The notes beneath the pieces are model-generated. The model was not told the DNA's origin and searched no databases. It saw only the letters and a list, made by a program, of their open reading frames with translations. Below, in pieces: positions 5,401-64,000 of a stretch of 64,000 bases of DNA. The position numbers were made by a program, and so were the translations under genes. The stretch comes from Schizochytrium sp. TIO01 (taxonomy: Eukaryota > Protista > Bigyra: Labyrinthulomycetes), in assembly GCA_004764695.1 (NCBI GenBank), contig SMSO01000025.1:4690862-4754861 (forward strand), written 5' to 3'. The first letter of the stretch is position 1. Each line of letters begins with the position of its first letter.

Positions 5401-8047
5401 CTGATCCTGATGAAGATAGGGAGTCCTTGCGATCTTTGACGCTGCTACGATCCTCATCGCTATTGTGCGAATACTTTGCATTTACATTTTCATCTTCGGA
5501 GTCAACGTCTGATTCGTCTGAGGACTCGTTGTTAGCAACTTCCTGGGCATCCCCTGTCAGTATCTTTTGATTGGATTTATTTGCCAATGCAGCTTCATTG
5601 CCTGAGCTAGCTTCTACGTCGTCATTCCCGTCCTCCTCTTCGCTATCTTCTTCATCATTGTTGTCTCTTTTAGATGGCTTGCGAGACTCCTTTGCATGAT
5701 GAGGATGTTCCATATCGCTCTCTTCGTCGCTGTCATCGTTCTCCTCTTCATGCTCAGCATTTCCTTTGATAGCTGATCCATCATCGGCCTCGCCTTCCTC
5801 AGAAGATACAGCACCATCATCCTGCCCTTCACTTTGTTTGACATGTGATTTGTCTTTGCCATTCTTTATGTTATCACTGGACTCGTCATTGCTACCTTCG
5901 GACTCACTCTCTGAGCCTTCCTCTGTCTTTTCAAGGTCCTTGTTAGAAATATTGATAGGTCCGGCAATGTCATTGCTGTTTTCCTGTTCAATCGTGGCAT
6001 TGAATGCAGCTCGACGTTTGGCCCTCATTTGTGCAGGAGTCAATTTTTCATCCTCTTCATCGCTGGAAGAGCCTTCCTCTGAGTCCGCCTCAGATCCAGA
6101 TTCGTTCTCGTCTTCCGCTGACGAGGACAAAACCGATTTATGCTTTTTGTTTTCGTCAGACTGGGAGGCTTCATCTTCTGACTCTTCAACTGTGGAGACC
6201 TTCTCAACATCATTGCCATCTGCGTCCTTTTCTTTGTGAAACGTTTTGTCATGGCGTTCTTCACCCTCGTCGTTGTCACTTCCACTTTCTTCATCTTCGT
6301 CGTTGCTATTCGTTGATGATGATTTCGCGCTCGCTACGTTTGTAGAGGTGGTGTCTGAAACCTTTTTGATGCCAGGAGATTTGTCCTCTTCCTCTTCCTC
6401 GGCGTCCTCCTCCTCCTCTTCTTCTTCTTCTCCAGAGACCTCGGAAACTTCAGATTCTTCATCAGATCCTTCTTCATCAGAGTCTTCCTCCTCGCTTCCT
6501 GTAACTTCTTCGCCGGATTCCTCTTCAGATTCCTCTTCGTCGTCATCTTCATTTTTGGAGGCAGATTTAGGCTTTGCACGCTGTGCTTCTCCTTCTTCTT
6601 CTTCTTCCTCCTCCTCCTCCTCTGAGCCAGATTCCGATTCGGATTCATCGCTTGCAGAAGGATGCGCAATACGTTTCACAGTTTCATCACGAATATCCGG
6701 AATGTCATCATCTTCGTCAGTAGCAGCTTCACTATCTGTGCGAGAAGTATCAGTGTCTCTTCGTTCTCGAGATGAGGTTTTAAAGTGACGAAAGCTCACC
6801 TGATCACTAATGCGAACCTCGCGAAGCTTCTTGCCACGGCCAGAGCCCCGAATATCCTCCTCATCAATTGGAATCGCCCGCATGAGTCTAATAATATGCA
6901 TAAGTTTAACACGCTCGCCCATCTTAAAGCCCATTTCCTCTAGATGATTGTCAGTCAGAAAAAGCAGTTCTGGAAGTGTGACTTGCTCCTCTTTAAACTT
7001 CTCCGCATGCTGGCTCATATTGATCACTTTAAGGAGGTCCTCAATGTTGTGAACATCGGCCTGTGCCAGCGTATCTACGTTCAACGGACTATCTCGGAGG
7101 CCCTTGAGAGTATCGTGAATGGCAATTTTATCACTGTCCAGTAATTCCACGGAATTAGAATTATCCATTCGGGAAACAGTCTTGACAACATCACCTTTGG
7201 CATGACCTTGTGCAAGCTTAGAAACCGAAGCACCATTAAGAATTACAACACCTGGTCCTTTGGGCCTAGACCAAACCCGGTCGCCAGTGGCTTGATTTAC
7301 AAAATACCGCTCGCCTGAGCTTGTATCAATATTGGAGATCCAGACCTCCGTATTAGAGTTGCTAAGGTCATCCTTTTCCTCCTCGTCGCTCTGCTCGCCA
7401 TCAGAGTTGTCTTTCTCACGTGCAAGTGCCGCCCTTGAGAGACTCTGTCGATTAGTGTTCTTTTCAGCAGCAGATGTACCAACGCTGGATGCTCCCGTTG
7501 CACCTGCGCGAGCATTAATCCGAGACGCAGTGGTAGTTGTTGTTGGCTTTGACGCTGTGGAAGTTGAAGCTGATGTTGAGGATGCCGTAGATGCTGAGGC
7601 TGTAGACTTGGCTGCTGTGTTGGATTTAGCTCCGGCTGTGCTTGTAGTAGATGAGTTCGATGTTCCACGCAGGCCAAATCGTTTGTTGGCAGGCTGTGTT
7701 GTTGAGGTTGCAGATGTTGCTCCGCGTGTTGAGGATGATGTCGAAGAAGATGTGTTTCCGTCTTCACCTGATTTTTTCTTCTTAAACCGCTTGCTGAGAG
7801 ACTTGCCAACTTTCTTTGGTCCCTTTTTCAGGTTGCTGAAGTTACGCTTGAGGTTCCTTTTGAGCACAGCGAGCACTGAGTCCTTTTTCTCATTATGTGT
7901 TGACACAGTGGTTGTGTTGGCTCTCGCAGCGCTCCCTGAAGCTGTGCTTGAGGATGTGGCATTCCGTGTCTTCGTCGATGCGGAAGCTGATGAAGATGAT
8001 GCTGATGTGGAGTTGCCCGCACGGCCCTTCACGCCGAAACCTGGCAT
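2360..8047 (-). CDS. Giant acidic low-complexity protein with WW and SAM domains (N-terminal part; probably continues into 327-2426 across a frame break)
   Basis: 1895-codon ORF. WW motif VWISNIDTSSGERYFVNQATGDRVWSRP (~7262-7348). SAM-like IEDLLKVINMSQHAEKFKEEQVTLPELLFLTDNHLEEMGFKMGERVKLMHII (~6880-7050). The rest is S/T/A-rich and then D/E/S-rich and probably disordered. Confidence 0.85.
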   Translation of the reverse strand: MPGFGVKGRAGNSTSASSSSASASTKTRNATSSSTASGSAARANTTTVSTHNEKKDSVLAVLKRNLKRNFSNLKKGPKKVGKSLSKRFKKKKSGEDGNTSSSTSSSTRGATSATSTTQPANKRFGLRGTSNSSTTSTAGAKSNTAAKSTASASTASSTSASTSTASKPTTTTTASRINARAGATGASSVGTSAAEKNTNRQSLSRAALAREKDNSDGEQSDEEEKDDLSNSNTEVWISNIDTSSGERYFVNQATGDRVWSRPKGPGVVILNGASVSKLAQGHAKGDVVKTVSRMDNSNSVELLDSDKIAIHDTLKGLRDSPLNVDTLAQADVHNIEDLLKVINMSQHAEKFKEEQVTLPELLFLTDNHLEEMGFKMGERVKLMHIIRLMRAIPIDEEDIRGSGRGKKLREVRISDQVSFRHFKTSSRERRDTDTSRTDSEAATDEDDDIPDIRDETVKRIAHPSASDESESESGSEEEEEEEEEEGEAQRAKPKSASKNEDDDEEESEEESGEEVTGSEEEDSDEEGSDEESEVSEVSGEEEEEEEEDAEEEEEDKSPGIKKVSDTTSTNVASAKSSSTNSNDEDEESGSDNDEGEERHDKTFHKEKDADGNDVEKVSTVEESEDEASQSDENKKHKSVLSSSAEDENESGSEADSEEGSSSDEEDEKLTPAQMRAKRRAAFNATIEQENSNDIAGPINISNKDLEKTEEGSESESEGSNDESSDNIKNGKDKSHVKQSEGQDDGAVSSEEGEADDGSAIKGNAEHEEENDDSDEESDMEHPHHAKESRKPSKRDNNDEEDSEEEDGNDDVEASSGNEAALANKSNQKILTGDAQEVANNESSDESDVDSEDENVNAKYSHNSDEDRSSVKDRKDSLSSSGSESDEESGLGEEDEEKRLRRDSGESDASLSSRGEEANSNDHNEVEAEGSDIESTAFSRSARNAIEGEESDGADQALHAYTSETSDSEDEDEDSDLDDVKLDAVELTESSKHRSSLSFPSDSEDDGEEELGSESEEDKHSSVGMHRIGRADSHGSDSRLSFSSADDADIIRRTLDDYGASSDEEENKEDSIYTTSSRAEVHQLSTEAPREASTLSHIQAGPMPPLHPASLSMPSEGDEDIELPNAVIDKSTRWRRNFAGYASQTDASSVGTKDRRHSRMLSLASAEVDSLFATDRGYGSAGLAYNSGEEEEDEDEDSVINDCDNKLKTVLAGGSGSNNSSSRHGLVAYDSDEGEMSETGDSEFYDSEYDDGSKYNADKIKRSLTELQKRNEDNMQTKSRDLPIVATHDVTIKPEISSKEQLSKTPCQSKTAALTLEEPKEEVVNITSDTQENGRERQTSFHKMLYDTNTSKEDIENLRKFRVAAWAAAAFARGKDDGALSGLRPTPSKISAASLATAKSGLAPPPSNSQTGPSRPIATQEMISKAREGLRPTPPLTPRSLPSLKSEEVPSSPSTPPTPLHVVAAYAGAKRVWATEFFIEEEERKVQGSPDASSDSLPDFEVPEEDEYSEFNDISLTRIVLDSEDEGGSGTETDGTSRVSRRSSRALVRLSEDVSDVENVSNVEKGVTLQVTMSVEEEETKRRSDGDDSLSVSSDDPDENDHLESVESNEVGQYNSDEADDEKDTAKDEDFNEDTDDDEILAGLAQLDNSHEELGLGRERATRSMSPGRPPLHSGTNTAEKFDRIASFRSKSSRSTSKSSIRERRPSIDDDDDDSLAGLEFMRPRHDSEGDLFDYRSAGLSDGEDSESDSDEEQSRIDTGPLLSRSRTPTMDSFFSDEQKPWPKTTRLSYSSGEETAEEPKRPLTKVQQMASVLNSRAKAKKEEGNDDDEEDTVDSDVKRDPSKGYVGPLLGAGRIRHVKSEWSDDEDAFYEQSKKQRKSQQKLYLIRHMRVLVAH

Positions 8048-8568
8048 GATCTCCTGGCCTTTTGGTGATTAATCCTTTGTAAGGTGCACCTTTGTAGAGC
8101 CGCTCGTATGAATCCGCAAGTTTGTTATTTACGTCTTGTACGTTTCGTTATGTAAACGTGAGTTCCACCAGGACGGGCAAGGAGAAGACGATTGTGAAAG
8201 TTTTCTTTCAAGAAAGTAGTCAAGAATATACAACAAGTCGAGTGTCTTGTGCAGCAAGCTTCGCCCTGAGTTCTTTCAGAATGATTCTACGTAGCTTGCA
8301 CCAGATCACGCGTCTGATTTAGCCGCGGTTTGCCAGGTCTTTGCTTGTGTTTTTGCGTCGGGTTGAGCTCTGTCGGGGTGCAACACAGAAAAGTACAGCA
8401 GCAATTCCCCAATCGCCGATGTCTTGTTTGCGCCGCCAGAGTCCGCAAGTTCGTTGCTGTTTTTGAGTCACCAGCACACGACTGGATCAGGTCGATCTCC
8501 AAGGCCACTCGTGCCTTGAATGCGAGGCCTTGTTCTGCTCCCGATCGGTTTTGGCGCCCCCTCGCGCG
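8048..8568 (-). promoter_or_regulatory. ATG-free leader/promoter region of the WW/SAM gene
   Basis: No CAT on the + strand (no ATG on -) between the start codon and 8569. Confidence 0.45.
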
Positions 8569-14149: not shown

Positions 14150-17100
14150 CGTAGGTTTTACTCAGAAACTTGCCTTAAGTCGCGACGCAGGTTTTAGAGT
14201 TTATACGCACAATGATCCAATGTATCAACATCCTTGTTAAAGCAGTCAGTATCTTGGACCAGTATCTTTAATGGGCTCAGTGGCATCTTGGGTTTCGGAC
14301 AGCTTCAAGTCGAATTGCAGAGCTGGCCGCCGTCTTGAGATCTTTCAGCAGGGCTCCCGGCGGTTTTCAGATCTTTCAGTACGCTTCATTGTCGATCGCG
14401 GATCTCAGAGTATGAGTAAGAAACCGTCAGAGCTTCGCCAATAAGCCTCTCGATGTCCATGGTGGAGTCTAAAACCTTGGCCAACTGCAGAAAAGCAGAG
14501 AATTACAGCGAAGCAGCAGGCTTAGCCGTATTGCCAATTGAGGATTTTTGCGTCACCTTTTGGGCGCGGGTCTTCGTCGGTCAGGCGGCTGTGTCTCTTG
14601 AGTGCATTCGCACGCTTCGATCGCAAATATCGAGTTCCGTTTATCCAAATGGATTCCCCCAAACCTCATGCGTGCATGGATTGCATTGCTTCTTTCAAGA
14701 GTGGGTGAGTGTGCACTCTGCTTATTCATAGTATACAACGCCCATCATAAACGAATGCCTTTTCGACGCCTGCGCAGCGAAGAAGGTCCATCGCATGGAG
14801 CCATGGCTGCTGCAAGCAAGCTTGAAGGTGCGGTAGCTCAGGCGGAAGCACACAAGCAGCAAGCTCGCAGCCGGATCCTTTCGATTGGCGTTTTCCTGAC
14901 CCAACTCGCAGGTTCGTTTTCCAGGGCTGATCAATCGCCCAGAACTTTCGAATACACGCAAAGCTCGGGAGCCCGTCACAGGGTCTCGCTCGGCTCCTAC
15001 TCCGCCAGGCGTCGTTCGAGAGGCCTGGGACTTTGGTCTCCTTTCCACACGCAGAGTATGCTGCTGATCTCAGCAGTTCTCCGTCGTGGTCATTCAGTCA
15101 GACCATCGTTGATTGATAGAAGAAAATAGGCTGCTCGAGCTTTTTGCAGAACTAGTATCGTCCTGCAGATTCCGAACTGAGCAAGTTGGCCGTTGGCTGT
15201 AGCTAGAGCCATAGAGGCTGGAGTGGCCGTCGCTCTCTCTCGTGGATCTGCTGTCGATCTGTCGAGCTCCTCGCGGCGCGCGATCACGAGCTTTGCGGCA
15301 CTCCACATTCTGCGCTCACGAATGATAGAACTCAGCTCATAGTTAATCAATGGCTTTGTTTTTTCAATGACTTCTATTATTATTATTATTGTTGTTATTA
15401 ATTAACCATAATTAGCAATAATTAAAGAAAAACAACAGCACAAAAAGCAATCATTCCAAAGGAATTCAATGCAGAGAGTTGTTTGTAAAGACTTCTGATG
15501 TCCTTCGCATGAATCAACAGAGGCGAGCGAGCTGACCCACAAAGCGAAGAGAGCCCTGGCTTGCACTGCGATACCTCTTCACTGTCGATTGGCACTCCGG
15601 GTTCGGTACCATCGATCACAGAACTCTCCTTCTTCAAGGTCGAGCATTTCATTATCACCATCTAGATATCAACTAAAGTTAACTTTCATCGCTATCTTCT
15701 TCTCAGAAACCTCGTACATACACAATATAGTTTTAATTAATTAATCAATCAATGACTTACATAAATGAATAAATAAAAATTAGCGCCTAATGGAAAGACT
15801 TTCTTCGAGCATCGCAAAAGGATACTGAGAAAAAGGGCTTTCATTGAGGAAAGAAAGCAAAGACGCAGTTACAATATCAGCAGAAAGAACACAATACTTA
15901 ATTGCCCACTGACTTACCTACTTACTTACTGCCTTACTTAGCTAACCAATCAGCTAGCTAACTGACAAACTAATAACCGACTGAATAACTGACTAGCTAA
16001 AAGATTGAAAACTCCTCGTTTGGCGTGCGCAAGATGGCGCCACGGGTATCCATCTTGGCTCGATTTTGGAGCTCACAGCAGGAGCGTGCGCCCAAGCGCT
16101 CACTCAGGCCTCCAGTCCAAGCTCGAGCCCTCCCTCCCTCCTCGGCAGAGGCCACGGGCCTTTTGCTCGCTCGCCGCTGTTCTATATCAAGGTCACGGCT
16201 GCTGCCTTTGCTTTCAATCGCTCTTGATCTCGCACAGAATTTGATTTGAAAGCTCGTCGCTGTATATCCAATAATTAATGAATTGGTTAATAATTAGTGA
16301 ATTAGTTAATAATTAGTGAATTAGTTAATTGGTAATAATAGTAATACTGGTAGGAACAATAATACTACTCAGTTATCAAACAAAAAGAAAGAATGCATCA
16401 AAAATAACAATTATTATTAAGATTGTCATGCCTTTTCAAGGCGGTTTTTCTTTTATATATGTTTAGAGTGAAGGCAAGCTGAAGAAAATACCAGGAGGAG
16501 GAAGGCTCCTTTTTATTTACTTGCGCTAACTTCCTTAGTAACTTACAGAAGCCGCGGCACAGCCTCATCGCCCTCGCTCAAAACAGCGTCGAGGTCAGTC
16601 TGATAGTCTGATGGGTGATGAGTTAGTTCATGAGTGAATTAATTCATTCACGTCGCAGGAATTCATGAATTCATTCACTTCGCAGGAATTTATGGTACTG
16701 TAGTGACTCTGAGGCAGTGCAGAATGCGAGAAAAGTACACAATTGTACCGACGCGTCGCAGTTATTCGTTGATTTGTTGATTTGTTGATCTCTTTGCAGA
16801 AGGTTACGTATTCTGCAGGACGTACGCCAAAGCGGGTATTGGTCGATCTCGGCAGAGATAATTTGCTCGACGTTGAGAAGAATTCCGAGTGTGAGCCAAA
16901 AGCAGCAGAAGCTGCCTCGAAGGGAACCAGGCTTCACCTCAAATTCTTCTCAGCCCGATCCAAAGCAAGAAATCCTAATGGCAAAGGCAAAGAAAGGCAC
17001 AAACGAACAAACAAAGAAACAAAACAACAAAGAAACAAAGAAACAAACAAAGGCGCTTCCCAGGAAAGCAAATCTATCTCAAGATCAGCTCCAACATGAG

Positions 17101-18012: not shown

Positions 18013-19584
18013 ATTGATTGTACAATTGATTGTACAATTGATTGATCGACTGATCGACTGATCGACTGAATGATAGATATATCATATAAATAGTTTCAAT
18101 GGAGTTAGGATACGTTCGAATAAAGCGCTCCGCTCATCTTCTATGGTCGTGTATATACTTATTTACTATCTTACATCCTCTCACAGTGACTATTTTGCGA
18201 AATTTAGTTCTAAAAATTATAGAGTTTTAGTTCCAGGACGAGTTTGAAAGAGAGAGATTCTAAAGGCGCCCATGGATACCTGGGACTGAAAAGGCTCGGA
18301 AAAGGGTCCACAGGCAAAGGCTCCGCAACTTAGATCTCTCGCATAAGCGAAAGCACCGGCGGAAGTATGGTCACTCATCCTTTTCGTTCCGCCGTTTGCG
18401 ATATTTGTTTGGCCTTCGCCACTTTGAGACAGCCGTGCGCCTCACAGTATCGATCGTCGTTGGTAGTTGTCCAAGGAGGTTAAGAATCCTTACTTACTTA
18501 CTTACATACTTAACTTGATCCAATCTTTCTTTCAATAACTTTGTATAACAAGAAAGGGCAAAGTAACTATTTTATTTTTCAATTCAATTAAAAAAAAAGT
18601 ACACAATAAGTTAAAACCTTTTCTTTTTAGCTTCAATAGTAGAATAAATAAAATTCATAACTTGTTTTGAAAATAAAATGAATCAAAAACAGAAAATTAA
18701 ACCAAATTAAACATTAAACATTTTAAAACAAAGCAAACACAACCATTCTTTCCAAAAATAAATTACTAAACGACTGTTCCTACGTGAGAAAGAACTAATT
18801 AAGGTGTGCCTATCAAAAATACTAGGCCTGGCCTGGCTCAGAGAAAAACAAAGCGGCGCAATTAAAAAAAAGACAGAAAACTTAAAAGAAAGAAAGAAAG
18901 AAAGAAAGCTTAAAAGAAAGAAAGAAAGGTCCCATCGCCTTCTTTCTGTGTGATCAGAGCGATTGGAGACAATCTTGCTTCGCCAAAAGTCCGGCCAGGC
19001 AGCGGCAGGAAACTCGAGCCACTCCACTCCACCACTCCTCGCAGCGGCTGCGACGGGCGCCAAAGCCTCGCAGGAAGCCCTGGGCCGGAGGCCGGGCAGC
19101 CCTCAGAGTGCCACCGAGCGCCAGCGACCTCTGCGGCAATTGCGGCAGACAGACTGAGAAGGAGGAGAGAGTGGCCCCTTGCTAGCTACTCAGAGATAGC
19201 TAGGTGCTAGGGCTTCTAGGACACGGCTAGACAGGCGGCTAGCGCACCCTCCTTTGGAATGTTTCTTTCTTTGATTGATGTATTTGATCGATGTGTTGAT
19301 GTACTGATTGATGTATTGATGTATTGATGTATGGGTTGATTGATTGTTTGTGTGTTAAATTGAATGATTGTTAGTTCGTTTGTTTGTTTGTTTTCGTGCG
19401 TCTTTCTTCAAAGAAGTTGGTTGATGTCGCTAACTTTGTCCCAGGGTAAATAAGTAGGCAGCTTGGAAGGGCCTAGCTACTGCTACAGGTGCCGAGACGC
19501 AGAAGACGTCAAGGCGGAATCTTCAAGACTTGGATGGTTGGTTGATTACTTCATTCATTCATTTATTCATTTATTGGATCAATC

Positions 19585-28350: not shown

Positions 28351-30654
28351 TAGGTACAAAGTAAGTATGTATGTATACATTCTCAGGCAGCATCGAATAC
28401 GATGGGAGCCATCTTTTGCAGTCTTGGAGACTGATTGCAGCAACGAACGATCGACTACGCGCGCGGACTCAGAGTCGAAAAGCAGAGCTCGAAGCTGCAC
28501 TCGATGTCGATCGAAGAAGAAGAAGAAGAAGAAGCGCAACGGAGCTTGAAAGCTTTCGAGGAACAAGTGCTTGCACAAACGCAGTTCTTGCATTCTTTCT
28601 CTCTTTGTTTGGATACGTACAAAGTGCGTGCTTTTCTGGTTCTGGTTCTGCGTGCGCTGTCTCCTCTCCTCGAGGCCGCCGTTCTCTGCGCTGTACTTGC
28701 TGTCTGCTCCTGCTCATGAGCTCTCGAGGACGCGGCTGCGGCTGTCTCTTCAGGGGAACTGGCGGCGATGCATCGGAAAACAACGACGATCGACCAACTT
28801 GTTGCGCCTGAGTGTCTAAGACAGTGAGTGCCCGAGTGGAGTCCATCGATCAAAGATCAGCCGGCGGTGGACGGGTAGGTCCCTAGCGCCAGAAAGGAAT
28901 TCCTTTCTGGCGCTCGCGGAGACAAGCGGCGGAAGAACCGGCGACTGCCACGATCTGGCCACTGCTCACAAGACCGTCGTTGCGCCTGCGTTCCAGTGCT
29001 TCCGTGGATTCCCCGCGGCACGGGTTTTGCTCCTGGCGCTGCTGCTGAGGAGGCGGGCGGAGACGTCGAGGTTCCTGCTCCGCACCGCACTTTGGAGGAA
29101 CAGCTTGCTGCGTAGCTCGAGCATGGGCTTTCTCGAGTTCTTGCAAGGACCCCCTCGAAGCTGTAGTTCTGCCTGCATGGGTTTGTGTGTGTGCATATCA
29201 ATGCACACCTATGCATGCATTACATACATAGATACATACATAGATACGTGCAAGCAATGTAAACATCAGTCTTTTCAAATCAACCCCAGAAAGGAAGCTG
29301 CTCTGCTCTTAGTATTGACCCGCAAACTGGAAACTCCACCTCAATCAAGAGGATGGAAAACTCATGCTCGCGGATGCTTTCTTTTCTTCTTCAACTTGTA
29401 TTGGTCCTCAATTAAAAAAGATAGGGCGTAGTGCAGACCTTTATTTGCTTAACATTTTAATTTAATTTTAAAGAAAGGAAGATGATGAATGCGGTGCCTA
29501 ATTTTATAATAAATGGAGTGTTTCCAGTTTTCGTTTTATTATTACTATTAGCAGTAGTAGTACAATATAAAAAGCGCGAGGAAAAGGACAAACTACCATC
29601 GCTGCAGGTTGGAACACTCATGCCGCTGCAAGAGCGCACTCCCTTCTGCAAAGGCGGCCCTCTCCCGCGTCGCCCGTATCATGAAAGCCACAGCCTCCAA
29701 TCGCTCCATCCAGACGCCGCACAATTTCGCGCGAATTCTGCAGTAGTTATTCCTCGCCTTCTCTCTTTTTCCTTTTTTTTTTCCCTTTCTATATATTTTA
29801 GAAGAAAATAAATTAAATTAAGTTAAAATATTTTATTATTTTTTAAAAAAAAATAAGTACTAGTAAAAGTTAACATCACAAGGAGTGCGTTTCCAAAAAC
29901 ATAGTGTAGGCCAGCAGAAGATTCACCATGGACGAAGAAAGTAAGAAACAAAGAAACAAACCAAGAAAGTCCTCGTCAAGCTTACGATGATCCAAGAATG
30001 GTACGAGCTATTGTACGGCTGCTCGAGACTTGGGCCGGCCTCCTTGTTCACGATAGGCACCTGACTATCTTCTGAGCAGAGCTGTGACTGACTGGGGACC
30101 TAACTAGTAGCTAGTAAGTTTGGGATTCCGATTTCGATTCATGCGGTAGAACAGGCAATTCATGGAGTTTGCAGGGACTTCGCAGAATAGCCAACAAGTG
30201 GCTAAAAGTAGGCTAGCTACTACGTACCACTTGGTTTCCAAAAAACAGCGAACGGTGCTTTGTTTGTTTCTTTGATTGATTGGTTGATTGATTGATTGGT
30301 TGATTGTACCTATTCTGTCTCCAATCAACTCAAATAGCAGGAGTGCTGCTGATTCTGTCTCCTTTCTCAGCCTGCGAGTTCTCGCCATTATTGCCGCCAC
30401 AGAGTTCTCGTAATGGAAATCTCCTGTCGATTGAAATCAATCAATCATTCAATCAATCGATCCATAGCTACTTAAAGCTCGGGAGCCCGAGTTTTCTTAA
30501 AGCAGCGCCGGTGTCGCTGAAGGGAGCGCCACAAGGAGTCGCAGCGACGATCGCTCAGAGGCACTCAAAGGAAGGCACGAGCGGCCTCTGTCGATTCGGC
30601 CTTTGGGCCCAAACCGACGCATCGATCGATGCCGTTTGAAGAAACGCCACGCCG

Positions 30655-33955: not shown

Positions 33956-36900
33956 CCGGTCAATCCTTCTTTCACAACCTCGAAGGCGCCTCGAAGTGAC
34001 CTATATGCCGCGCTGATGGATTTATTCACAGCCGCTTTTTAAAAACAGCATTCAGAAACGCGTTCATTCGAGGAAATGAGATTTGTCAGAAAAAAGCAAA
34101 TGCACAGCATTTCTCCTGTCATTCTGTTGTGCAATCAGCGCCAAACGCTCCTTTACTAATGCTACTGTGCTGTGCTGTGCATGCCTTCTTCTTATTATTA
34201 TTACATACTCAATAACATGCATATATGTGTCTCTATTCTTCACAGCTCAAAAAGGCACCACAATTGGTGGACTTTAGGTGCCTAGTTTACACACTACACG
34301 AAACAACATGCGCCGCTGACAGCCTTTTCTGATCTAACGCTCAAGACCAAATTTGGATCGAGATTGCTGGCGGAGCGAGCTCTTTCTTGGCCATTTACAT
34401 TTTTTTAAAAAGAAAAGAAAAAAAGTCGATCTTCACTTTGGCCGTTCGTTTGTTCTTTCCTCTGTAATTCAGAAAGAAATGGAAATAGAAACGATCGTTG
34501 GTTCGCTTGCTGTTATTGCCCATATTTGGGGACGCAGTTCGTTCTCCTTGAACTCGCAAAAGACGTTTCGAAAGCAGGAGCATATGGACCTCTCTTTCAA
34601 AGAAAGGTTCGAGTTTCTTGTCATGAGAAAGAGGTCGATGGTACTCTTCTTCTTCTTCTTTTTCTTCTTTTTGTTGTACATGCACGCCGCCTAAGAAATA
34701 ATGAACCATGAGTCGAAGGCTGTAGAGTTAGTTAGTTAGCTGAAGGATGCCTTAAACAGACGAAAGCACTGAGAGAATCATGATAAGCATAGATGAGCGT
34801 AGGTAGCGCTAGGCAGGCACTCGGGTAGAATATTTCTTTCGTCAGCATCATCAGCAAACGAACGGAAATCAGAGTTTTTCACGAAACTAAGGTCTCCTTC
34901 ACTGCAATTCCTGCTTTCATAAACCCTCTTGATCCTCTGAAGAGCGCCCCATCGAATTCGGGAGTCTCTGTTTTGTTGTTGTTGTAGGCCCAACTGAGCT
35001 GACTTGAATGTGACCTCTTTTGCTACACTCACTTGAAACGAAGTTGTGGAAATACCTGTTCACTGCAAAAGCAGAGTTTTAAAAATTAAATTTAAAAAAA
35101 GGGGGAAAAGGCCATGGAAAGCTGAGAAACTCTTCTCTTAGCTTTTCCAGGGACAACTTATTCCTGAAAGTGTTTCTCCTTTCTCTTCTTCCTTCTTCAT
35201 GATACGAACCTATAAAAACATATTTAGTTTTTACTCTTTTCTTAGAGGCTAAAAAACAAAAGTATAATATTAAACCTTCAGACAGATCGCATTCGCTTTG
35301 ATTGACCGCTACGCTGCTAAAAGCAGCAAAACCTATTGCCAGAAGGACAGATACACCACTTCGTTTCGTGTTTATTGAGCAAACTCTGAGCTTGTTTCCA
35401 GCTGCAAGATGTTTCTCTGATAGCCTTCCTGATGCACCATCGATCGAGTTGAAGAATTCGCCCTTTTCAAGTTGAAAGAAAGCGAGCTCTGTTTTGTAAT
35501 GATTGCGGAAGCTTGCATACATACATGTATGCACGTACGTATGTATGTATGTGTGTATGTGTGTATGTATGTATGTACGAAGATACATCATCTTTAGAGT
35601 CTTTAGAACCTGCGTTTCTTTCTTTCGAGCGTTGAAGCTTTGGGATCTGAGCCATCGGAGGAACCTTCTTCTGGCTTTGGTCCCCTTTCGCTGCGACGGA
35701 CTCGAGTTTATATGGAACGCGGAGCTTCTTTCTCTTTTTCTTTCTTTCTTTCTTTCTTTCTTTTTCTTTGTTTGGTTTGTGTCTCTCTTTCTGTCGGCTG
35801 AGCTCATGCTTATGAGAAACCAGGCCAACTGACATGCACTGCTATTCAACGAGTTTTCGCATGATGAAAAAGCGATGGTAAGTAAGGATACAGCGCTTCG
35901 ATTGTGGAGGAAAGTCCAATCTTTGAAATCCCTTGATTGATTGATTGATTGAGGTTTTTTCCATTACTCTTTGTGTTCTTCTTTCTTTCTTCTTCTTTTA
36001 AAGTGTCAAAAAACAACACAATTATTTTGTAAGCGCTTTTAAAAATCGTGGCAAAACCAGAATCGATGTTTTTTTAAATGATTGAAACTACTTGAAACGA
36101 AATTGTACAAATGATGAAAAGTGAAGAAGAAGAAAGTTGAACGTGACGAGGTGTTGCCGTCAATAAAGTGAGGAGCTGCGACTCGAAGGGCTCAGCAAGA
36201 GAGGAAAAAGTCAAGGGCACGTCGCTTTTACGATTCGCATGATGATGAGACCTTGGCCTTTTCTATTCGACTCCAGCAATATGCTTGATTTTATTAACTT
36301 TCTAACTTTCTTTCAGGTTTTGCCGAGTTCCTGGTTTTCATCACTGTTGGTCTTCCTTCTTCTTTTACTCGACACACATGAGATGAGGCATCTTTTGGTC
36401 GATTTATACTTAAGTTCTAATTCTAATTTCCATTTGAAAAGGCTCGTTCTCTCAACCATGAAAGAAGTGGCGAATTTCTGCCTTCCGTCCAATAGCATAG
36501 AGGAGAAAAAGGACCAAACGATACTTGATCAACTTGCATTTTACCCCTCAGCTGAGCGTATGCTCTAAAGCAGGGCAACGAAAAGAAGGCGTCCTGAGCA
36601 GAAAGAAGAAGCTCTTTCTTCGTGAGGCGTGAGGACACACTCGCAAAGCTCTTTCTTGTGAGGAAGACTCAGTGCGGTCAAGAGATTGCGCTGGAAAGTC
36701 CCTCCCTTCGCAGCGATAATAAAAAGTAGAAAATAAGTTCTTTTCCATCATATTTTAGCTATTTAAATCAAAATTAATGAATAGTGACTCAATTCTGAAA
36801 ACAGTAACATCAAAAACGTTGTTCTTCTTTTAATTCGACATGTCAACAAAGGCAAGCAACCTCTTTGTTAGGAAGTTAATACTTATTTAAAAACAATTTT

Positions 36901-37559
36901 AAAATTTTAAAAAATAAAACAGAGACACTTTCCGTAAAAACTCTCAACTTTGAAACCAAAGTCGAAAATTTCAACAGCATTCGATCTAACGAGGCTTTTC
37001 TTAGCTGGCCTCGTCGCCTTTATTTGCACAAAGGCAGTTCCTTATTTTCTCGCAGACGATAGATTCTATGCGCTGCATAATAGATAGGCGTTGATGGTAT
37101 TTATTTACCAACCCCTTCTTTCATCGATTCCTTTCCTTTTCCTCAGAGCGCTGTTTCATCCTCATTTGGTGAACGAGAGTTCTTTCCCTCTCTTTGAGGG
37201 CAGATACTTCTTTCCCGTTTCCAATTTAGTGCTCAACACTTTTCTATTCCAATTCCAATTTTAACCTTTTAATCTCAATTTCAATTTCGAATAAACATAA
37301 TAAATAAAAACACTTTGTTTATTTTGAAATAATAATGATCATCATCATTGTAACAGTGTGAATCAATCAATCATCCATAATGGATATATGTGTGAATTAT
37401 TGTTGGAAGCGAACAAGAAAACAATAATAATTGCGAGAATGATGAATATTTTAGAGTGGGATTGAAAAGCAATGAAGAAAATGGAAAACAGAAACAAAAA
37501 GAGAAAGAAAAGAGGAAACGAAGGAAACAAAAAGAGAGCAATTCAAACTCGCAACCTCG

Positions 37560-37640
37560 TCACCGCCGCGACAGCGGGCGCGCGACCGGGCGCGAGGCCG
37601 GCCTCCGGCCTTCGCGGTGGCCGGCCGCAGCCGTGGAATT
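37560..37640 (+). promoter_or_regulatory. GC-rich candidate core promoter of the Zn2Cys6 gene
   Basis: A sharp GC island (CCGG/CGG-rich) follows an A-rich tract and precedes a pyrimidine-rich, ATG-free leader. Confidence 0.45.
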
Positions 37641-39029
37641 ATACGCTCTCAGATACACCGATCTCCCCCCTCTCACGCCAGGCTCGCAGGAGAACCTGCG
37701 CACCAGTGCTCCATCGCGCATCAGCGTGTTGCAAGGGATTCGCTTCTTTTTCTTCTTCTTTTTCTTCTGCTTCTTCTTCTTCTTCGCTTTTTCAAGAAGT
37801 TTTCGCTTTCTTTCACATCTGTTCTTCCGGCTACTCTTTCACGCGTCACGTTCTTCTTCGTCGTCGGGACCGTGGCAGAAGCAGACGAACTGGCCTGCCA
37901 GCTGAGCTGCAGGATACGGAATAGACCCTTGCCTCTTTGATCTTTTGTTTTTTGTGGTGGTTTTTGTCAGGTTCTGTGGTTTGGGCTCTCGCTTTCTCTC
38001 CTCTCTCTTTGCTTTTTGGTTTTCCTCGAGTTCTTCAAGTTGTCCTTCTTTACGGCATCCTCTGCATTGGTGCAAGAGACGCACACCAAGTAGGAGCGCA
38101 CAAGATCCTGCTTAGGCTCTCCTTTTACAGGTGAACGGACTTTCATTGGCCTCTTTATTTTGCTTTCCTACTCCTGGAAATTAAAAGCTTCTGTGCATTT
38201 TCTGGGTCCTTCTTTTCACTGCCTCTCGTGTTGTCTTTTATTTGGGCGGCCGAGTCCGTTTTGGAAACCCTTCCTTGCTCATTGGCTTCGCTCTGTATTT
38301 TGTTCCCTCGTTGTGTGTCTGTGTCACCTTTGTGTTTTGGGTTGCTAGGAGACTGAACTGGAAGGACATTCAGTTTTCTCTTAATCGAGAGGAGTTCTAG
38401 TCTCAGTTTGCTTGTGGCTGGGTCCTTCAAATTCCATCCTTTCTTCTCCTGTATACGTCTCGTTTTCTCACCTTAAAAGTTACCTTTGGTCATTTGACAG
38501 TTTTGGGTGCCCCACTTCGGCTTCATCCCGTGCGATAATCTCAACGTTCAAGAGAGATTATATAGGATTTGAATTTGTTTTCTTCAACTCTGTCTATCAG
38601 GAGTTTGTTCCTTTGTTGGGCGCGGATCACAGATATTTGACTTGAATTAACAAATTCATTTAGTCGTTGTGCATTTTTTAAAGAAGCTAGCTACCCTCGA
38701 CTCCTTAACATTTTGTCTTCTTCGTGCTCAAGAAGCTTCTGAAGTTGATTTCCTAACCGATAGGACAAAAGAGCACAAACACGAAAGTGTACCTTTTTCT
38801 CATCATCTCGTTTCCTCATATCTCTGCATTCACCCTTAATTGCTCGCTTCTATCATTCGCCCCCCCCCCCCCCCAAAAAAAAAAGACAATAGTACGGTCC
38901 CGTACGGCTGGTGCATTTATTTCACGACTTCAGAACGCGACGTAGAGAACAGGCGAGCACCACTTTTGAATCTCAGACAAAGCCCGCGCCGCCGGGTCAC
39001 TCAGGCGCGGCGGCGCGGAATTCCCAACC
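37640..39029 (+). promoter_or_regulatory. Long ATG-free candidate 5' UTR ending in an 11-bp GC hairpin
   Basis: No ATG on + from 37484 to 39029, versus about 20 on -. Inverted repeat at 38984-38994 / 39008-39018. Confidence 0.65.
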
Positions 39030-42020
39030 ATGGATCCGCCCTCGCAGCCTATGTCTTCTACCTCCTCCACTTCTGCCTCCTCTTCATCTGCGCCGCCTTC
39101 AATACCTGCGTCTTCAGCACCAAGGATAGGACCTGCAGTACCGCAATCACATCCTCAGAGTCAGCAGCTACACAAAGCTCCCTCGAACGTACCATCAGAA
39201 GCCCAAATCTCCTCCAGACCATTTTCATCATCTCCTGTAGCAGCAGCAGGTGCTACTGCGGTTTCAGGCAAACAACAAATTGCATCACCGTTGCCACAAC
39301 CTGCGTCCTCGTCGAAACCTGGGCAGCACAACATCACTTCAACTCTAGGCGTTGCTGCCGGAACAACGCAAAACCCTTCGGCTACTACCATCTCGGAAGC
39401 CTCCACTAGCTCGCGCCGCACAGGGAAGTCGGCGTCTGGCGGAAGCACATCCCCGAAAGATCCAGGCTCTGATTCTCAAATCCAATATCGGCACGTGCAA
39501 AGTGCTTGCATGGCATGTCGGAAGTCGAGAGTCAAATGTGACAGGATGCTGCCGTGTGCAAGGTGTAGAAGGTTAAATATTCCGTGTGAACCTCAACTTC
39601 GAACACGTGGTAGGCCTCCATCGTATCGGCATGATCCACCTTCAGCTAAAGCTTCTCCAGCAGCAGCTTCTACCTCGAGTGCTACTCCCAAGCCATCAAC
39701 ACAAGGATCTATGATGTCATCTTCATCTCCTCTGTCTCCGAACTCTCCTCCACCAGCGCTCGGGTCACCTCCAACAACAGCAAGCCCCACATTGAAATCT
39801 ATGGAACAACCTACAAAACGCAAGTCAAAGAAAAAGCAACCGCAGCTTGGTGCTGCAGCTTCGCCTTCTTTACGAGCGCCCTTTGTGCCCACTCCTGTAA
39901 TCACAAGTGGAATGCGAATGCCAAGTGCCCCTTCAATATCCCAGTCGAAAAGGCATCCGCGGCCATCACCACAATCACAACAACAACCAAATCAGCCAAC
40001 CAAGCCTCTTGTTTCAAAGTTTTCTCAAGAAACTATGCAACCTGGCTCGCCATCCACTTCTTCTGCAACGTCCGGTCCGCAGTCACCCCCAGGGTCAATT
40101 GCGTCAGGCTCGCATCCTGGACAGGTTCCTTCGCCTCTTGCAAATTTGCCTCGTTCCTTTCTTATGGGTCGGCCAGAGCTAGAATGGTTTCAGTCTTTAC
40201 AAAACATTCAGCAAAAGTTCATGCTATCAAATCCATCCCCACCGGGACAACAGCAACCACAGCAGCAACCTCCGCAAGCGTCCCCGATGGCCAACTCTCC
40301 ACTTGGTGGTCTTACCATCTCCACTTCGCCTACGTCACAGACAGGGATTTCGTTGCCCATGGTAAGCGGAAACACTTCTGTTGGATCACCTCAATATCCC
40401 GCGGGATTAGGATCCTCTTCTTCTTCTTCTTCTTCATCAGTGAATGTTCATCCTTTGCAAGGAAGACAATCACCAGTTTCTGAACCTCCACAACACGCAA
40501 AGAATCCTGCACCAGAGGAGAAGGACATGGACGCGCAACCAAAGGGCCTGGTTACAACTTCTGCAACATCAAGTTCTAGCCAAGCTGTCCCTTTCCGAAT
40601 TCCTAGCTCAGCCTCTTTGGGTTCTATGGGTTCTGCGCAATCCCCAATCGGGTCTGCTGGAGGCGGAAGTTCACCACATCACTCGTCTATGACTATTCCA
40701 TGGGTACCCTCAGTAGGCGGAACAAGTCACGGGGACTCTCCCACACTTGCAGCCGAACATCATCAATTGCACTGCTCTCCGGTTGAGGCAATGGCTGAAA
40801 CCTTTGTGGATCTTTTCCATCGTAACGAAATTAACACCAATGCCGCCATCCGCTTCGTAAAACTCTGCCTTTATCTCTTTCGTGCCAAGCCCACGGACCA
40901 ACTGCGAGATTTTGTGGAAAGAGCCGCCGGGGTCTTGCAAGCGAATCCCGTCGATATATATAACAAACAGAGCGAATCTCTAAATCAACCTTCGAAAGGA
41001 AATCAATCAAAACTCCCTGACGCATCAGCACGGGCAGAAGCGCTTTCGCAACGTTTCGGCTTTCGTGAGAAATGGGCAGTTGAAGGCGCCGCCTTTGCAG
41101 AGCTCTCGGTTGCTGAAGGAGTTCTAACGGCACGCTGTAACCCTCTCTGGAATCGTCTCTTTCCTAATAACGACGTCCTTGCGCGTCTAGGTCTCTTGGA
41201 TGCCATCGCCCTTCCGTTCCCTGAACGAGACGGCGCAACCCTGTTCCATGAGATCGCAGAGATTGTACTCACAAAGACGGATGATATCACAGTGGCTCGC
41301 AAAATTTTGAGCATGTATCTGGGAGGCACACCCCACAAACTCTCGGCACTTGTGGATATGCACTTCTGCATGAGCGAAGATGGGAGCATTGCGCAATGTA
41401 CATTGCGTGCACTTCCCCTTCCTGAGAGTCCTGCATTTAGTATGCAGCAAGGGTGTATTTTCAAGTCGCAATACTTTCTTCAAATGCTCCCAGTTCCTCC
41501 TTCAAAACAACCAACTCCTGCCAACCCTTTACCTTCCCCTCCCAAAACCTCCGAAGAACGCGACTCTACTGGTAAAAGGGGGAGTGACAGAGGTGCTTCA
41601 GGTTCAAGCAGGTCATCCAAAGCTCCTCGAAGCCAGCAACATCAACCTTACCACCAGCAGCAGCAGCAGTACGCTCCTGCACCAGGAGCCTCAAGCCTTT
41701 CAATAATGGACCTTCTCCGAATGAGTCCTCCCGGGCCGGAGTTGAATACCGGCTCTGACATGGGACCGTCTCAACAGCAGCTTCACCCAGACACCACTGG
41801 AACAAAGCGAGCCCGTGCCTCGTCCGGCGCATTACCAAGTGGTGGTGAGCTTGTCGGAGCTGGAGACCTTGGTCAGTACCCTGCCTGGGCCTCCGAGAAC
41901 CCTGTGAAACAGCAACAGCAACCGGAATCCCAACCTAAACGGCAGAAGCGCACAACTTCAGAATCTACCGGCACACAATCCGACAGACCTCTTCACAAAG
42001 GTAAGCTTTCATCTGTTTGA
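39030..42020 (+). CDS. Zn(II)2Cys6 (GAL4-type) zinc-cluster transcription factor with a putative C-terminal PAS-like domain
   Basis: 996-aa ORF with accATGG start context. CMACRKSRVKCDRMLPCARCRRLNIPC = C-x2-C-x6-C-x5-C-x2-C-x6-C (39507-39587), followed by basic RTRGRPP. S/P/Q-rich disordered tracts, an NLS-like KRKSKKK, and a globular region at ~40780-41500. Confidence 0.92.
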   Translation: MDPPSQPMSSTSSTSASSSSAPPSIPASSAPRIGPAVPQSHPQSQQLHKAPSNVPSEAQISSRPFSSSPVAAAGATAVSGKQQIASPLPQPASSSKPGQHNITSTLGVAAGTTQNPSATTISEASTSSRRTGKSASGGSTSPKDPGSDSQIQYRHVQSACMACRKSRVKCDRMLPCARCRRLNIPCEPQLRTRGRPPSYRHDPPSAKASPAAASTSSATPKPSTQGSMMSSSSPLSPNSPPPALGSPPTTASPTLKSMEQPTKRKSKKKQPQLGAAASPSLRAPFVPTPVITSGMRMPSAPSISQSKRHPRPSPQSQQQPNQPTKPLVSKFSQETMQPGSPSTSSATSGPQSPPGSIASGSHPGQVPSPLANLPRSFLMGRPELEWFQSLQNIQQKFMLSNPSPPGQQQPQQQPPQASPMANSPLGGLTISTSPTSQTGISLPMVSGNTSVGSPQYPAGLGSSSSSSSSSVNVHPLQGRQSPVSEPPQHAKNPAPEEKDMDAQPKGLVTTSATSSSSQAVPFRIPSSASLGSMGSAQSPIGSAGGGSSPHHSSMTIPWVPSVGGTSHGDSPTLAAEHHQLHCSPVEAMAETFVDLFHRNEINTNAAIRFVKLCLYLFRAKPTDQLRDFVERAAGVLQANPVDIYNKQSESLNQPSKGNQSKLPDASARAEALSQRFGFREKWAVEGAAFAELSVAEGVLTARCNPLWNRLFPNNDVLARLGLLDAIALPFPERDGATLFHEIAEIVLTKTDDITVARKILSMYLGGTPHKLSALVDMHFCMSEDGSIAQCTLRALPLPESPAFSMQQGCIFKSQYFLQMLPVPPSKQPTPANPLPSPPKTSEERDSTGKRGSDRGASGSSRSSKAPRSQQHQPYHQQQQQYAPAPGASSLSIMDLLRMSPPGPELNTGSDMGPSQQQLHPDTTGTKRARASSGALPSGGELVGAGDLGQYPAWASENPVKQQQQPESQPKRQKRTTSESTGTQSDRPLHKGKLSSV

Positions 42021-42862
42021 TTAGCAGCAGACAAACTTGTTCGCTATGAGTTACAGCTTTAGATCGGGCTTCCTTTCTACGTGCATTTGCATTTTTCTTC
42101 CGTTGTTGCCAAAGCTTGGTTTAAACGATGGTTTGGAAATTGCAATTTGCACGTTCCGATTCTCTTCAAGTGCTCATCTACCCGATCGTTTTTTGGTCCT
42201 GACTTCTGTAACACTCAATGTGTGGTTTGCTTGGTTGGTTTCTTGGTCTGCTGTTTGTTGTTTTTATTTTGTTTGACTGAATGATTGACTGAATGGATAA
42301 ATGGATAAATGAATCCGATGATTACGAATATGAAGTGATGATGATAATCTCACCTTCATGCTAGCCAAGAGCCAATTCTTGGCTTCCTATGCTATATGCT
42401 ATAACAACCGATTCCTCCAACCATTATACACTCTTAACTGAATTGAAATATTCATATCAACTACTTTCAAGTATTCTATTCTTCTTACTACTGGGTTCAT
42501 ACATTCTCCCATATTCTCCTTCACGAAAAGTATGTATCAAAAAGATGAAGATGTCAAGACAGACAAAGAATGACATCAAATTCGAAACAGTTACGATAAT
42601 AGAAATTTTCATTCAAATAATTTTTCCTATAAGATTGTAAATTAGATCTGTAAGTTGATATAGAGGTAAAGTAAGATCCAATCCCCGATTTATTTGGACA
42701 TTCTGAATCTGCACCAGGACTTTAAATTCATAATTTTAGTTAGCCCTTGTATACTAAAGCAATTGTTCTTGTTCCTTGGAAGGCATTATTCCTTTATAGG
42801 TATTTGTATTTCACTTATCTCAAACGATACATAGCGTTCAAATTGATACCAAAAATGAAACC

Positions 42863-44101
42863 TCAAAGCTTTTGCTGTTGCTGTTGCTGTTGCTGTTTAG
42901 ACCACCACGCCTTGAATGCCTGGAGTCCACAAGGCAAAAATTTCAAGGTATCCTCTTCAAGAATTTCTTCAGGGCTCATGAGTTTTACCTCTGAGACTTC
43001 TGATTCCTGAAGCTTCAATTCAGACACAGGAGTATCGAGACGGGCACAAAAGATGGTTCCCCAACTACGCTCCTTCGGATCCTCATACCAAAAGGTCGTG
43101 ACATGCTCGAATGACAAGTTCTCCAAACCCATCTCCTCTGCCATTTCACGCTGTGCATTGATGAGGTAGGACTCCCCCGCACCAATGACGCCACCTGGAG
43201 CAGGATCGAGAAGACCTGGTCCTGAATCTTTCTGATCTGAGCGACGCTGGACGTAGATCTTTCCGGAGCTGTTATTCACAAGAATGATATAGGTACAACG
43301 AGAAATCAGGTTAAACGTGCGCACAACAGCGCGCTTACTCGAGCTTACAACTTGGTCGTCCTCATTCACTACGTCAACCATCTCGAAAGCGGAGAGACGA
43401 GAGTAACGCGCATGCAGCTTTTGCAACTCCTGGTGGACCTTTGCTAGCAGTGCGTTCTGTTCGCCTTCGTTGGTAAATTCTACATGCGCAACAGCACGCC
43501 GCTCCTCGTTTGTAATTTGGGAATTGATTCGCTTGATGGCATCTTCCTCACTAAGATTGTTACGAGCCATAAGCCGCTGTTTAGCTACCTCCCGGTCAGC
43601 TGTGACAACCCAAAGTTCATCGATAAGATCCATCCACTTCGCCTCAATCAAGATGGCCGCCTCAATTACAATAAGTTTAGCCTCACCGTCATTGGCTTCT
43701 TTCGTGGTGATTTCAAACATCCGCTCACGAATGAGGTCACGGATCGCTGGCCAGACAATGGAATTGAGGGCTTGCATTTCCCTCGGATCTGCAAAGACAA
43801 GGCTTCCAAGAGTCTTACGATCCACAGTTCCATCGTCCTTGTTGATAATCCTGTCCCCAAAATGGTCTACAAGCTGTTGCATGCACCTGGTGCCGGGCTT
43901 GTATGCCTCATGGCCAAAAAGGTCTGCATTGAGGATAATGGCCTTGCCTTCATCCTCGAGCAATTTACAAACAGTAGATTTTCCCGAAGCAATGCCACCA
44001 GTCAGACCGATCACGACTGCATTCGGTGGTGTTCGAAACGACTTTGCCTCCGCTTCGTTCACGAGCGGAACCTTGATAGGACTTGACGGTCCGCCACCCA
44101 T
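42863..44101 (-). CDS. coaE: Dephospho-CoA kinase fused to a YfcD-like Nudix hydrolase (412 aa)
   Basis: N-terminal VIGLTGGIASGKST P-loop, plus DRKTLGSLVF, LNSIVWP, EAAILIEA and RLMARNNLSEEDAIKRINSQ (CoaE family). C-terminal perfect Nudix box G-VIGAG-E-SYLINAQ-RE-MA-EE-MGL (~43124-43192), preceded by EMVDVVNEDD...YVQRRSDQKD. Confidence 0.9.
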   Translation of the reverse strand: MGGGPSSPIKVPLVNEAEAKSFRTPPNAVVIGLTGGIASGKSTVCKLLEDEGKAIILNADLFGHEAYKPGTRCMQQLVDHFGDRIINKDDGTVDRKTLGSLVFADPREMQALNSIVWPAIRDLIRERMFEITTKEANDGEAKLIVIEAAILIEAKWMDLIDELWVVTADREVAKQRLMARNNLSEEDAIKRINSQITNEERRAVAHVEFTNEGEQNALLAKVHQELQKLHARYSRLSAFEMVDVVNEDDQVVSSSKRAVVRTFNLISRCTYIILVNNSSGKIYVQRRSDQKDSGPGLLDPAPGGVIGAGESYLINAQREMAEEMGLENLSFEHVTTFWYEDPKERSWGTIFCARLDTPVSELKLQESEVSEVKLMSPEEILEEDTLKFLPCGLQAFKAWWSKQQQQQQQQKL

Positions 44102-63172: not shown

Positions 63173-64000
63173 GATTGGCCAGCAGGGAGCCTCGCCCTAA
63201 TAGATGTGCGTATAGCTTCGAGCCTTCTCTCCAGGGTGCTTTCACCACCCACGGTATAATAAGCAGAAACCAGGGTCAAAAGTACCCTAGCAAAGCTACG
63301 AAAAGCTACGAAGCGTCAGCAATGAAGATAAGAGATTCCCTTTTAAAGATATCGATGGGCCAGAGAACTAATCCAAAGCAAAATAAAGCAGGTCAACCAA
63401 ATCTATCAAGCCTGCGAATGTCCCTAAAATAGAACCACCACAACCAGCAACACAGCACTGGGCAATTGACGAGTTCGGTCGGGGATCTGTTTGCTTCTTT
63501 GGAAATATTCGCCCGAGGGTATGTGCGCTGGAGAGGGAGAGGAAGAGAGAGAGAGGCCCAAGCGACCGAACAATACGCCACCCACCTGCTTTTCTGGTCT
63601 CTTAGCCAAGAGCGGTTGTTGCGGCGGAAATAGCTCCACGGCCTCCGCGACGTCTATACGCGATCCAGCTTGTCTTGGCCCAGCCGTCTACGCGTGCAAG
63701 ATGGCGCTTTGCGAGGGAGCGAGGCAGCGAGAGAGCGAGTGAGGAAGTCGAGTCAGAGGATGAGAGACTGAGTACGCCAAAGAAACTAAGAAAGTCAGAA
63801 GAAGGAGGCGAGATCAACACAAAACAACTGAGCGATCCGAAGGAGGAGGAGGAGGAGGACTGTAGCCAGTAGCGAACAGCGAGACCGTTTCCTGCTCTGC
63901 TCGTCCCGCCGCGCTGACTATGCTCCTTGGCTGCGCAGTCTGAGCAGCGAGCACGCGAAGCTCGAGCTGCAGTCCAGGCCGGGCCAAACTAGTTTGATTC
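63173..64000 (-). promoter_or_regulatory. ATG-free leader of the Kelch gene (runs off the window)
   Basis: No ATG on - over 828 nt, versus about 8 on +; the sense strand is pyrimidine-rich. Confidence 0.5.

What the first reader, a model, noticed from the sequence alone, without database searches (positions are those of the whole stretch)
37484..39029. 1.5 kb without a sense-strand ATG before the Zn2Cys6 start: a purged ultra-long leader
Seen: a line-by-line scan finds no ATG on + from 37484 to 39029 (1,546 nt), while the opposite strand has about 20, which serves as an internal control. The segment is pyrimidine-rich and starts near a GC island at 37560-37635. Inference: a largely unspliced ~1.4-kb 5' UTR under selection against upstream AUGs, since introns would not need purging. 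That implies long-range scanning and likely translational control of this regulator.
Basis: partly seen in the sequence, partly recalled or inferred. Interest (0 to 1): 0.75.

Follow-up and report, generated by a model that had tools for sequence, protein, structure and literature searches.

The report
Giant AUG-free leader of protist regulator
A 1.5-kb stretch with no ATG runs up to the start of a zinc-cluster regulator gene in a marine protist and likely forms one very long, unspliced messenger leader kept free of false start codons, a kind of feature already described for fungal regulator genes.

Summary
Observation confirmed: 0 ATG on + in 37484-39029 (1,546 nt), against 21 on the other strand and 10.5 expected from dinucleotide shuffles (0 of 5,000 reach zero). 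The gene is a thraustochytrid (Aurantiochytrium-like) Zn2Cys6 factor with a predicted PAS-fold domain. Contigs of three probable RNA runs from three studies begin at 37506, 37508 and 37556, 22-72 nt after the last ATG, while a probable DNA run continues upstream. Two of them are exactly long enough to run unspliced to the C15A10 run at 38860-38884. So the leader is likely about 1.52 kb and starts upstream of the GC island, not at it. Not shown: strand, cap site, continuity across the last 150 nt into the CDS, or any translational control. Two other genes in the window also have long ATG-free runs upstream (521 and at least 828 nt). Precedent: the Candida albicans WOR1 leader (1,997 nt, no AUG uORF, lowers translation). 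The scan noted similar leaders before in two other (fungal) genomes. New member of a known kind.

The parts
37484..39029 (+). ATG-free interval (0 ATG, 21 CAT)
37506..39029 (+). inferred 5' leader, about 1,524 nt, likely unspliced
   Evidence: 5' ends of probable-RNA contigs at 37506/37508/37556; colinear projection to 38875/38879; word shares. Strand and cap site not shown.
37541..37660 (+). GC island near the 5' end of the leader (inside the RNA contigs)
   Evidence: folding no better than its composition, z -0.46
38860..38884 (+). C15-A10 homopolymer run where the two long RNA-like contigs project to end
38984..39018 (+). perfect 11-bp all-GC inverted repeat (13-nt loop), predicted hairpin -33.2 kcal/mol, ending 11 nt before the AUG
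39030..42020 (+). 996-aa Zn2Cys6 transcription factor, start context CCAACC-ATG-G; Zn cluster residues 159-189; predicted PAS-like fold at about residues 674-804
   Evidence: complete CDS in a named MMETSP transcript, 8 of 996 residues different

Best explanation
The interval is likely the ~1.5-kb, unspliced 5' leader of the Zn2Cys6(-PAS) factor's mRNA, starting near 37500 and kept free of AUG by ordinary purifying selection, because the 40S subunit would scan it from the cap to the well-placed AUG at 39030. The leader's length and the predicted -33 kcal/mol hairpin just before the AUG would slow scanning and damp output of this regulator, as the long AUG-free WOR1 leader does in Candida. Shown: the ATG void, the hairpin sequence, the gene's domains, and where probable-RNA contigs begin. 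Inferred: strand, one continuous molecule, scanning. Untested: any damping or regulation.
For: Zero ATG against 10.5 expected, strand-specific. Upstream of the RNA boundary ATG is plentiful (7 in 37300-37505). Contigs of probable-RNA runs X1, X13 and X2 (3 studies) begin at 37508, 37506 and 37556 with no loose ends or joints, while probable-DNA run X19 spans the whole laid stretch; the tool rates this a weak hint. Contig lengths 1,368 and 1,374 project to 38875 and 38879, inside the C15A10 run, as expected with no intron in between. All 18 RNA-like runs (8 studies) hold 0.75-0.81 of the words of 37300-42300, against 0.83-0.86 for 6 DNA-like runs. Expected shares are 0.80-0.82 if only the first 206 nt were missing and 0.57-0.59 if the leader to 38875 were missing too. 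No strong donor motif. Start context has A at -3 and G at +4. uAUG depletion is general (PMC7889888, passages), and WOR1 is a direct precedent (PMC4552353).
Against: The runs are guessed, not recorded, to be RNA, and contigs give no strand, start or level. Only 398 nt were laid, for 3 of 18 RNA-like runs; the rest is projected from contig length. Continuity over 38875-39029 into the CDS is not shown. The named MMETSP transcript with the complete CDS is 3,739 nt, leaving at most 748 nt for both UTRs together, so no single assembled record shows the full leader. Two GTACG donor-like sites at 38892 and 38902 lie in the untested part. No orthologous leader could be fetched.
Confidence: 0.78

Rival explanations
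1. Two start sites: most mRNA would begin near 38890-38980 with a short leader, and the 1.5-kb form would be a minor or conditional isoform (as with the two EFG1 transcripts in Candida).
For: Assembled records with the complete CDS are short: 3,739 and 3,436 nt. A second GC-rich element lies at 38984-39018. EFG1 has a long and a short transcript (PMC6034079, passages).
Against: The distal 1,354 nt are fully purged (0 ATG against 9.9 expected), which needs the long form to be translated often enough to be selected. The distal contigs are deep (mean word depth 174 and 87, a poor measure of level). Assembly breaks at the homopolymer or the hairpin would explain the short records equally well.
Confidence: 0.12
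2. The 37506-38875 RNA would be a separate non-coding transcript (sense, ending at the A10 run, or antisense from a bidirectional promoter), unrelated to translation of the factor.
For: Both long contigs project to end at the C15A10 run. Strand is unknown.
Against: A non-coding or antisense RNA gives no reason for loss of ATG on the + strand alone (0 against 21 CAT). The void runs without break to the very AUG. No Rfam family reaches its gathering score.
Confidence: 0.05
3. The hairpin would act as a gate for near-cognate starts: stalled ribosomes would initiate at UUG 38966 (out of frame, 147 codons overlapping the CDS) or AUC 38970 (in frame, 20 extra residues), so that start-codon stringency sets protein level or isoform.
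For: UUG ends 15 nt and AUC 11 nt before the stem. A hairpin 14 nt downstream boosts weak starts (PMC5666671, passages).
Against: Both codons have a pyrimidine at -3. About one near-cognate codon is expected by chance in any 8-nt span (own estimate). No conservation data. This is an add-on to the best reading, not an alternative to the leader.
Confidence: 0.08
4. Chance, composition, or an intron.
For: AT dinucleotides are scarce in the segment (0.61 of expected). One good acceptor-like site ends at 38130.
Against: 0 of 5,000, 0 of 3,000 and 0 of 300 shuffles reproduce it. No strong donor. Contig lengths fit unspliced RNA.
Confidence: 0.02

Closest known systems
Candida albicans WOR1 5' UTR (PMC4552353; passages and Discussion read)
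   Same: Kilobase leader on a transcription factor mRNA (1,997 nt), stated to contain no AUG-initiated uORF. The paper also lists EFG1 (1,139) and CZF1 (1,662) as long regulator leaders.
   Different: WOR1's translational damping was measured; nothing is measured here. Different lineage (fungus versus thraustochytrid stramenopile) and unrelated protein. The paper describes no AUG-proximal perfect hairpin.
Candida albicans EFG1 5' UTR (PMC6034079; passages)
   Same: About 1.1-kb regulator leader, a predicted hairpin, two start sites, AUG uORF absent in strain SC5314.
   Different: There the leader promotes translation, so the sign of the effect cannot be read from length alone.
General uAUG depletion in eukaryotic 5' UTRs (PMC7889888; passages)
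   Same: Purifying selection lowers the observed/expected ratio of uAUGs in all fungi, plants and animals examined and in 15 of 20 protists.
   Different: Here depletion is complete over 1.5 kb. Whether thraustochytrids were sampled was not checked (supplement not read).
Fungal AcuK/AcuM/Rds2 Zn2Cys6-PAS factors (PMC12719309; passages)
   Same: N-terminal Zn2Cys6 plus a C-terminal PAS-type domain (here predicted: Z 8.7, rmsd 3.5 over 115 residues to LOV/PAS structures).
   Different: No sequence hit to the ERT1/AcuK PAS family in Pfam. The Atlas feature score to that cluster was 0.87, a lead only. Orthology not shown.

Membership tests
Long AUG-free regulator 5' leader (WOR1-like) | No sense-strand AUG over more than 1 kb upstream of the start | tested here: met
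Long AUG-free regulator 5' leader (WOR1-like) | Downstream gene is a transcription factor | tested here: met
   PF00172
Long AUG-free regulator 5' leader (WOR1-like) | Interval is transcribed, with a 5' end near the start of the void | tested here: inconclusive
   Contigs of 3 probable-RNA runs begin at 37506-37556; runs not on record as RNA; no strand or cap data
Long AUG-free regulator 5' leader (WOR1-like) | Unspliced and continuous with the CDS | tested here: inconclusive
   Lengths fit unspliced RNA to 38875-38879; the last ~150 nt are not bridged
Long AUG-free regulator 5' leader (WOR1-like) | Leader changes translational efficiency | not testable with these tools
   needs reporters or polysome profiles
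uORF-controlled leader (GCN4-like) | AUG-initiated uORFs in the leader | tested here: not met
   0 ATG in 37506-39029
Described structured RNA family (Rfam) | Match at gathering score | tested here: not met
   only DUF3577, 25.9 bits against 42.6, E 0.065
AcuK/AcuM/Rds2-type Zn2Cys6-PAS factors | Zn2Cys6 domain | tested here: met
AcuK/AcuM/Rds2-type Zn2Cys6-PAS factors | C-terminal PAS domain | tested here: inconclusive
   PAS/LOV fold on a predicted model, best Z 8.7; all 50 listed rows are PAS/LOV-type or PAS-bearing proteins by their titles; Foldseek best E 2.9e-3; no Pfam PAS hit
AcuK/AcuM/Rds2-type Zn2Cys6-PAS factors | Common descent with the fungal subfamily | not tested
   no tree built; the profile search returned only 6 proteins

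The most novel reading that the evidence does not exclude
Thraustochytrid signalling and regulatory genes routinely carry 0.5-1.5-kb leaders purged so completely that the last upstream ATG marks the start site to within tens of bases. In this gene a terminal perfect GC hairpin turns the leader into a translational gate, switching between the main AUG and near-cognate starts 11-15 nt before the stem.
Probability: 0.12. Interest if true: 0.6.

Novelty: new member of a known kind. Interest (0 to 1): 0.32.

Why it matters
It extends the pattern of kilobase AUG-free regulator leaders, known from Candida, to a stramenopile. It shows that an ATG void read from raw DNA can point to a transcript's likely 5' end within about 25 nt. 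Practically, anyone cloning this promoter or tuning this factor would have to include about 1.5 kb plus the DNA upstream of 37500. It opens no new mechanism unless the hairpin proves to be a regulated gate.

Tried and rejected
No whole genome is held for this window, so no genome-wide distribution of leader lengths could be made. Sequencing-run search: no RNA holder listed on record; 18 of 24 rows are guessed RNA, 6 untyped. Orthologous leaders: one metagenome scan gave 5 loci at 46-60% identity over the Zn cluster only, none a thraustochytrid orthologue by inspection; not used. Rfam: one sub-threshold DUF3577 match, rejected. The 5' GC island folds no better than shuffles (58 of 200 as good). 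Frames overlapping the leader (37396-37905, 37466-37924, 37476-37940, 38155-38472) have no Pfam match; the 150-aa ORF from ATG 37472 starts upstream of the RNA boundary. The in-frame open stretch before the AUG is only 20 codons, so there is no long non-AUG extension. The three single-base differences seen in the laid runs are too few to test selection. Foldseek found no match at E <= 0.001. Two rows had mis-entered gene starts; they were dropped and redone. Literature: a search for thraustochytrid + Zn2Cys6 + transcription factor + Schizochytrium found 0 papers. Searches listed no paper on thraustochytrid leader length or on this gene among the rows shown; the library lacks most subscription papers. 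The taxon number printed in the MMETSP record resolves to an unrelated fungus; A. limacinum is 87102, so transposed digits are my inference.

Full report
Observation. The last ATG before the gene is at 37481-37483 and the next at 39030. The 1,546 nt between have 0 ATG and 21 CAT. This is the longest gap of any trinucleotide on the + strand of the window; the next ATG gap on + is 581 nt. Mononucleotide shuffles give 21.2 ATG and dinucleotide shuffles 10.5, with 0 of 5,000 reaching zero; 100-nt block shuffles give 9.7, with 0 of 3,000. Shuffling the whole window in 250-nt blocks gives a longest gap on either strand of at most 1,046 in 300 trials.

The gene and the organism. 39030-42020 encodes 996 aa with a Zn2Cys6 domain at residues 159-189. 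A named MMETSP transcript encodes the same protein, marked complete, with 8 of 996 residues different. The nearest named relative is from Hondaea fermentalgiana (83% over the conserved C-terminal region). The organism is therefore a thraustochytrid, likely Aurantiochytrium limacinum or close kin (inference; earlier notes on this genome point the same way). A model of residues 575-830 (mean pLDDT 79.7, 7 sequences) matches PAS/LOV domains over model residues 100-230 (best Z 8.7, rmsd 3.5, 115 aligned), while Foldseek reached only E 2.9e-3. The layout resembles fungal AcuK/AcuM/Rds2 (PMC12719309, passages); membership was not shown. The start codon sits in CCAACC-ATG-G.

Is the interval RNA? The run search listed 24 holders of 37300-42300, none on record as RNA. 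Eighteen runs from 8 studies (20-51 million letters of contigs) are guessed RNA and hold 0.75-0.81 of the words; six untyped runs from 3 studies (63-68 million letters, read here as DNA) hold 0.83-0.86. If only the first 206 nt were absent from RNA the expected share is 0.80-0.82; if the leader to 38875 were absent too, 0.57-0.59. I laid 3 of the 18 RNA-like runs and 1 of the 6 DNA-like runs on 37345-37742. The DNA-like contig spans all of it. The RNA-like contigs begin at 37508 (X1), 37506 (X13) and 37556 (X2, depth 8), with no loose ends or joints. The tool rates such a shared stop as a weak hint, and contigs show neither strand nor cap site. Still, two of the three ends fall 22-25 nt after the last ATG, and the 206 nt upstream hold 7 ATG. 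The X1 and X13 contigs are 1,368 and 1,374 nt long; read colinearly they end at 38875 and 38879, inside the C15A10 run at 38860-38884, a natural break for assemblies. That fit argues against an intron in 37506-38875. There is no GTRAG or GTRMGT donor in 37301-39100; two GTACG sites (38892, 38902) lie in the unbridged last 150 nt, so a small intron there is not excluded. Against the reading: the assembled records with the complete CDS are 3,739 and 3,436 nt, leaving at most 748 nt of UTR. They fit either an assembly break at the homopolymer or hairpin, or a second, proximal start.

Anatomy. The likely 5' end lies in an A-rich tract about 35 nt before the GC island (37541-37660), so the island is inside the RNA. 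It folds no better than its composition (z -0.46). It is the only all-GC one among 6 perfect inverted repeats of at least 10 bp (loop up to 30) in the window, and the most stable of the + strand 40-nt windows with at least 60% GC that were folded. Predicted energy is -33.2 kcal/mol, z -4.55 in a 58-nt window and -2.13 in a 91-nt window, both chosen after seeing it. A UUG (out of frame, 147 codons) and an AUC (in frame, 20 extra codons) end 15 and 11 nt before the stem, near the 14-nt spacing that favours weak starts (PMC5666671, passages). Both have poor context and such a coincidence is common, so this is a lead only. As DNA the repeat is rich in CGG/CCG triplets, the kind zinc clusters bind (PMC10954478, passages); autoregulation is untested.

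Is it special in this genome? Of 9 gene starts examined (longest-ORF ATGs), the ATG-free runs upstream are 1,546, at least 828, 521, 219, 132, 52, 22, 10 and 4 nt. The 828-nt run (kelch-repeat gene, cut by the window end) and the 521-nt run (SAM-domain gene) each have 0 of 2,000 shuffles at zero. Long purged leaders thus recur here, and this is the longest in the window. Upstream, 8.6-37.5 kb looks gene-poor: 26 of the longer frames there (20 of the 62, 6) gave no Pfam match at cut-off, though short exons could be missed.

Mechanism. Most likely, cap-dependent scanning over about 1.5 kb makes every upstream AUG costly, so selection removed them all; length and the terminal hairpin would lower initiation. 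Shown: void, hairpin sequence, domains, contig ends. Inferred: one continuous + strand RNA and scanning. Untested: regulation. The purge argues for scanning rather than internal entry, and against GCN4-type uORF control, but it does not by itself show translational control.

Known parallels. uAUG depletion is general (PMC7889888, passages). The C. albicans WOR1 leader is 1,997 nt, has no AUG uORF and lowers translation (PMC4552353, passages and Discussion). The EFG1 leader of about 1.1 kb raises it (PMC6034079, passages). No supplements were read. The scan's earlier notes describe two similar fungal cases; they are unchecked and are not support. No paper on this gene or on thraustochytrid leader lengths appeared.

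Verdict. A real feature with better support than sequence alone gave, and a new member of a known kind. Interest 0.32; confidence in the long unspliced leader 0.78.

Noticed in passing
window 38984-39018: Perfect 11-bp all-GC inverted repeat ending 11 nt before the AUG; predicted RNA hairpin, or as DNA a CGG/CCG-rich possible zinc-cluster site.
   Followed up: partly
window 63173-64000 (-) and 8048-8568 (-): ATG-free runs of at least 828 and 521 nt upstream of a kelch-repeat gene and a SAM-domain gene; the 521-nt one begins at a GC-rich step after AT-rich DNA, as in the finding.
   Followed up: partly
window 8569-37500: About 29 kb with no recognisable gene (26 frames scanned, none at Pfam cut-off), rich in microsatellites, with GC islands at 16081-16160, 18981-19140 and 28981-29060, lying between two divergent genes.
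   Followed up: partly
window 40752-41519: Conserved C-terminal region predicted to be a helical bundle plus a PAS-like fold; a small family of Zn2Cys6 proteins shares it (P0003, P0010-P0014) and Pfam does not name it.
   Followed up: partly
P0003 (Hondaea fermentalgiana GBG29767.1): The annotated orthologue is 586 aa and lacks the Zn-cluster half; likely a truncated gene model. It shares the C-terminal GKLSSV.
   Followed up: no
window 42863-44101 (-): Dephospho-CoA kinase (CoaE) fused to a NUDIX domain, convergent with the regulator gene.
   Followed up: no
window 327-8047 (-): Two consecutive in-line ORFs (1,895 and 676 aa) separated only by a stop and 2 nt; one acidic low-complexity SAM-domain gene with a short intron, or a read-through, is possible.
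   Followed up: no
window 35876-36277: Canonical donor (GTAAGT), branch-like CTAAC and acceptor on + in the gene-poor region, with only a very short spliced frame by eye.
   Followed up: no
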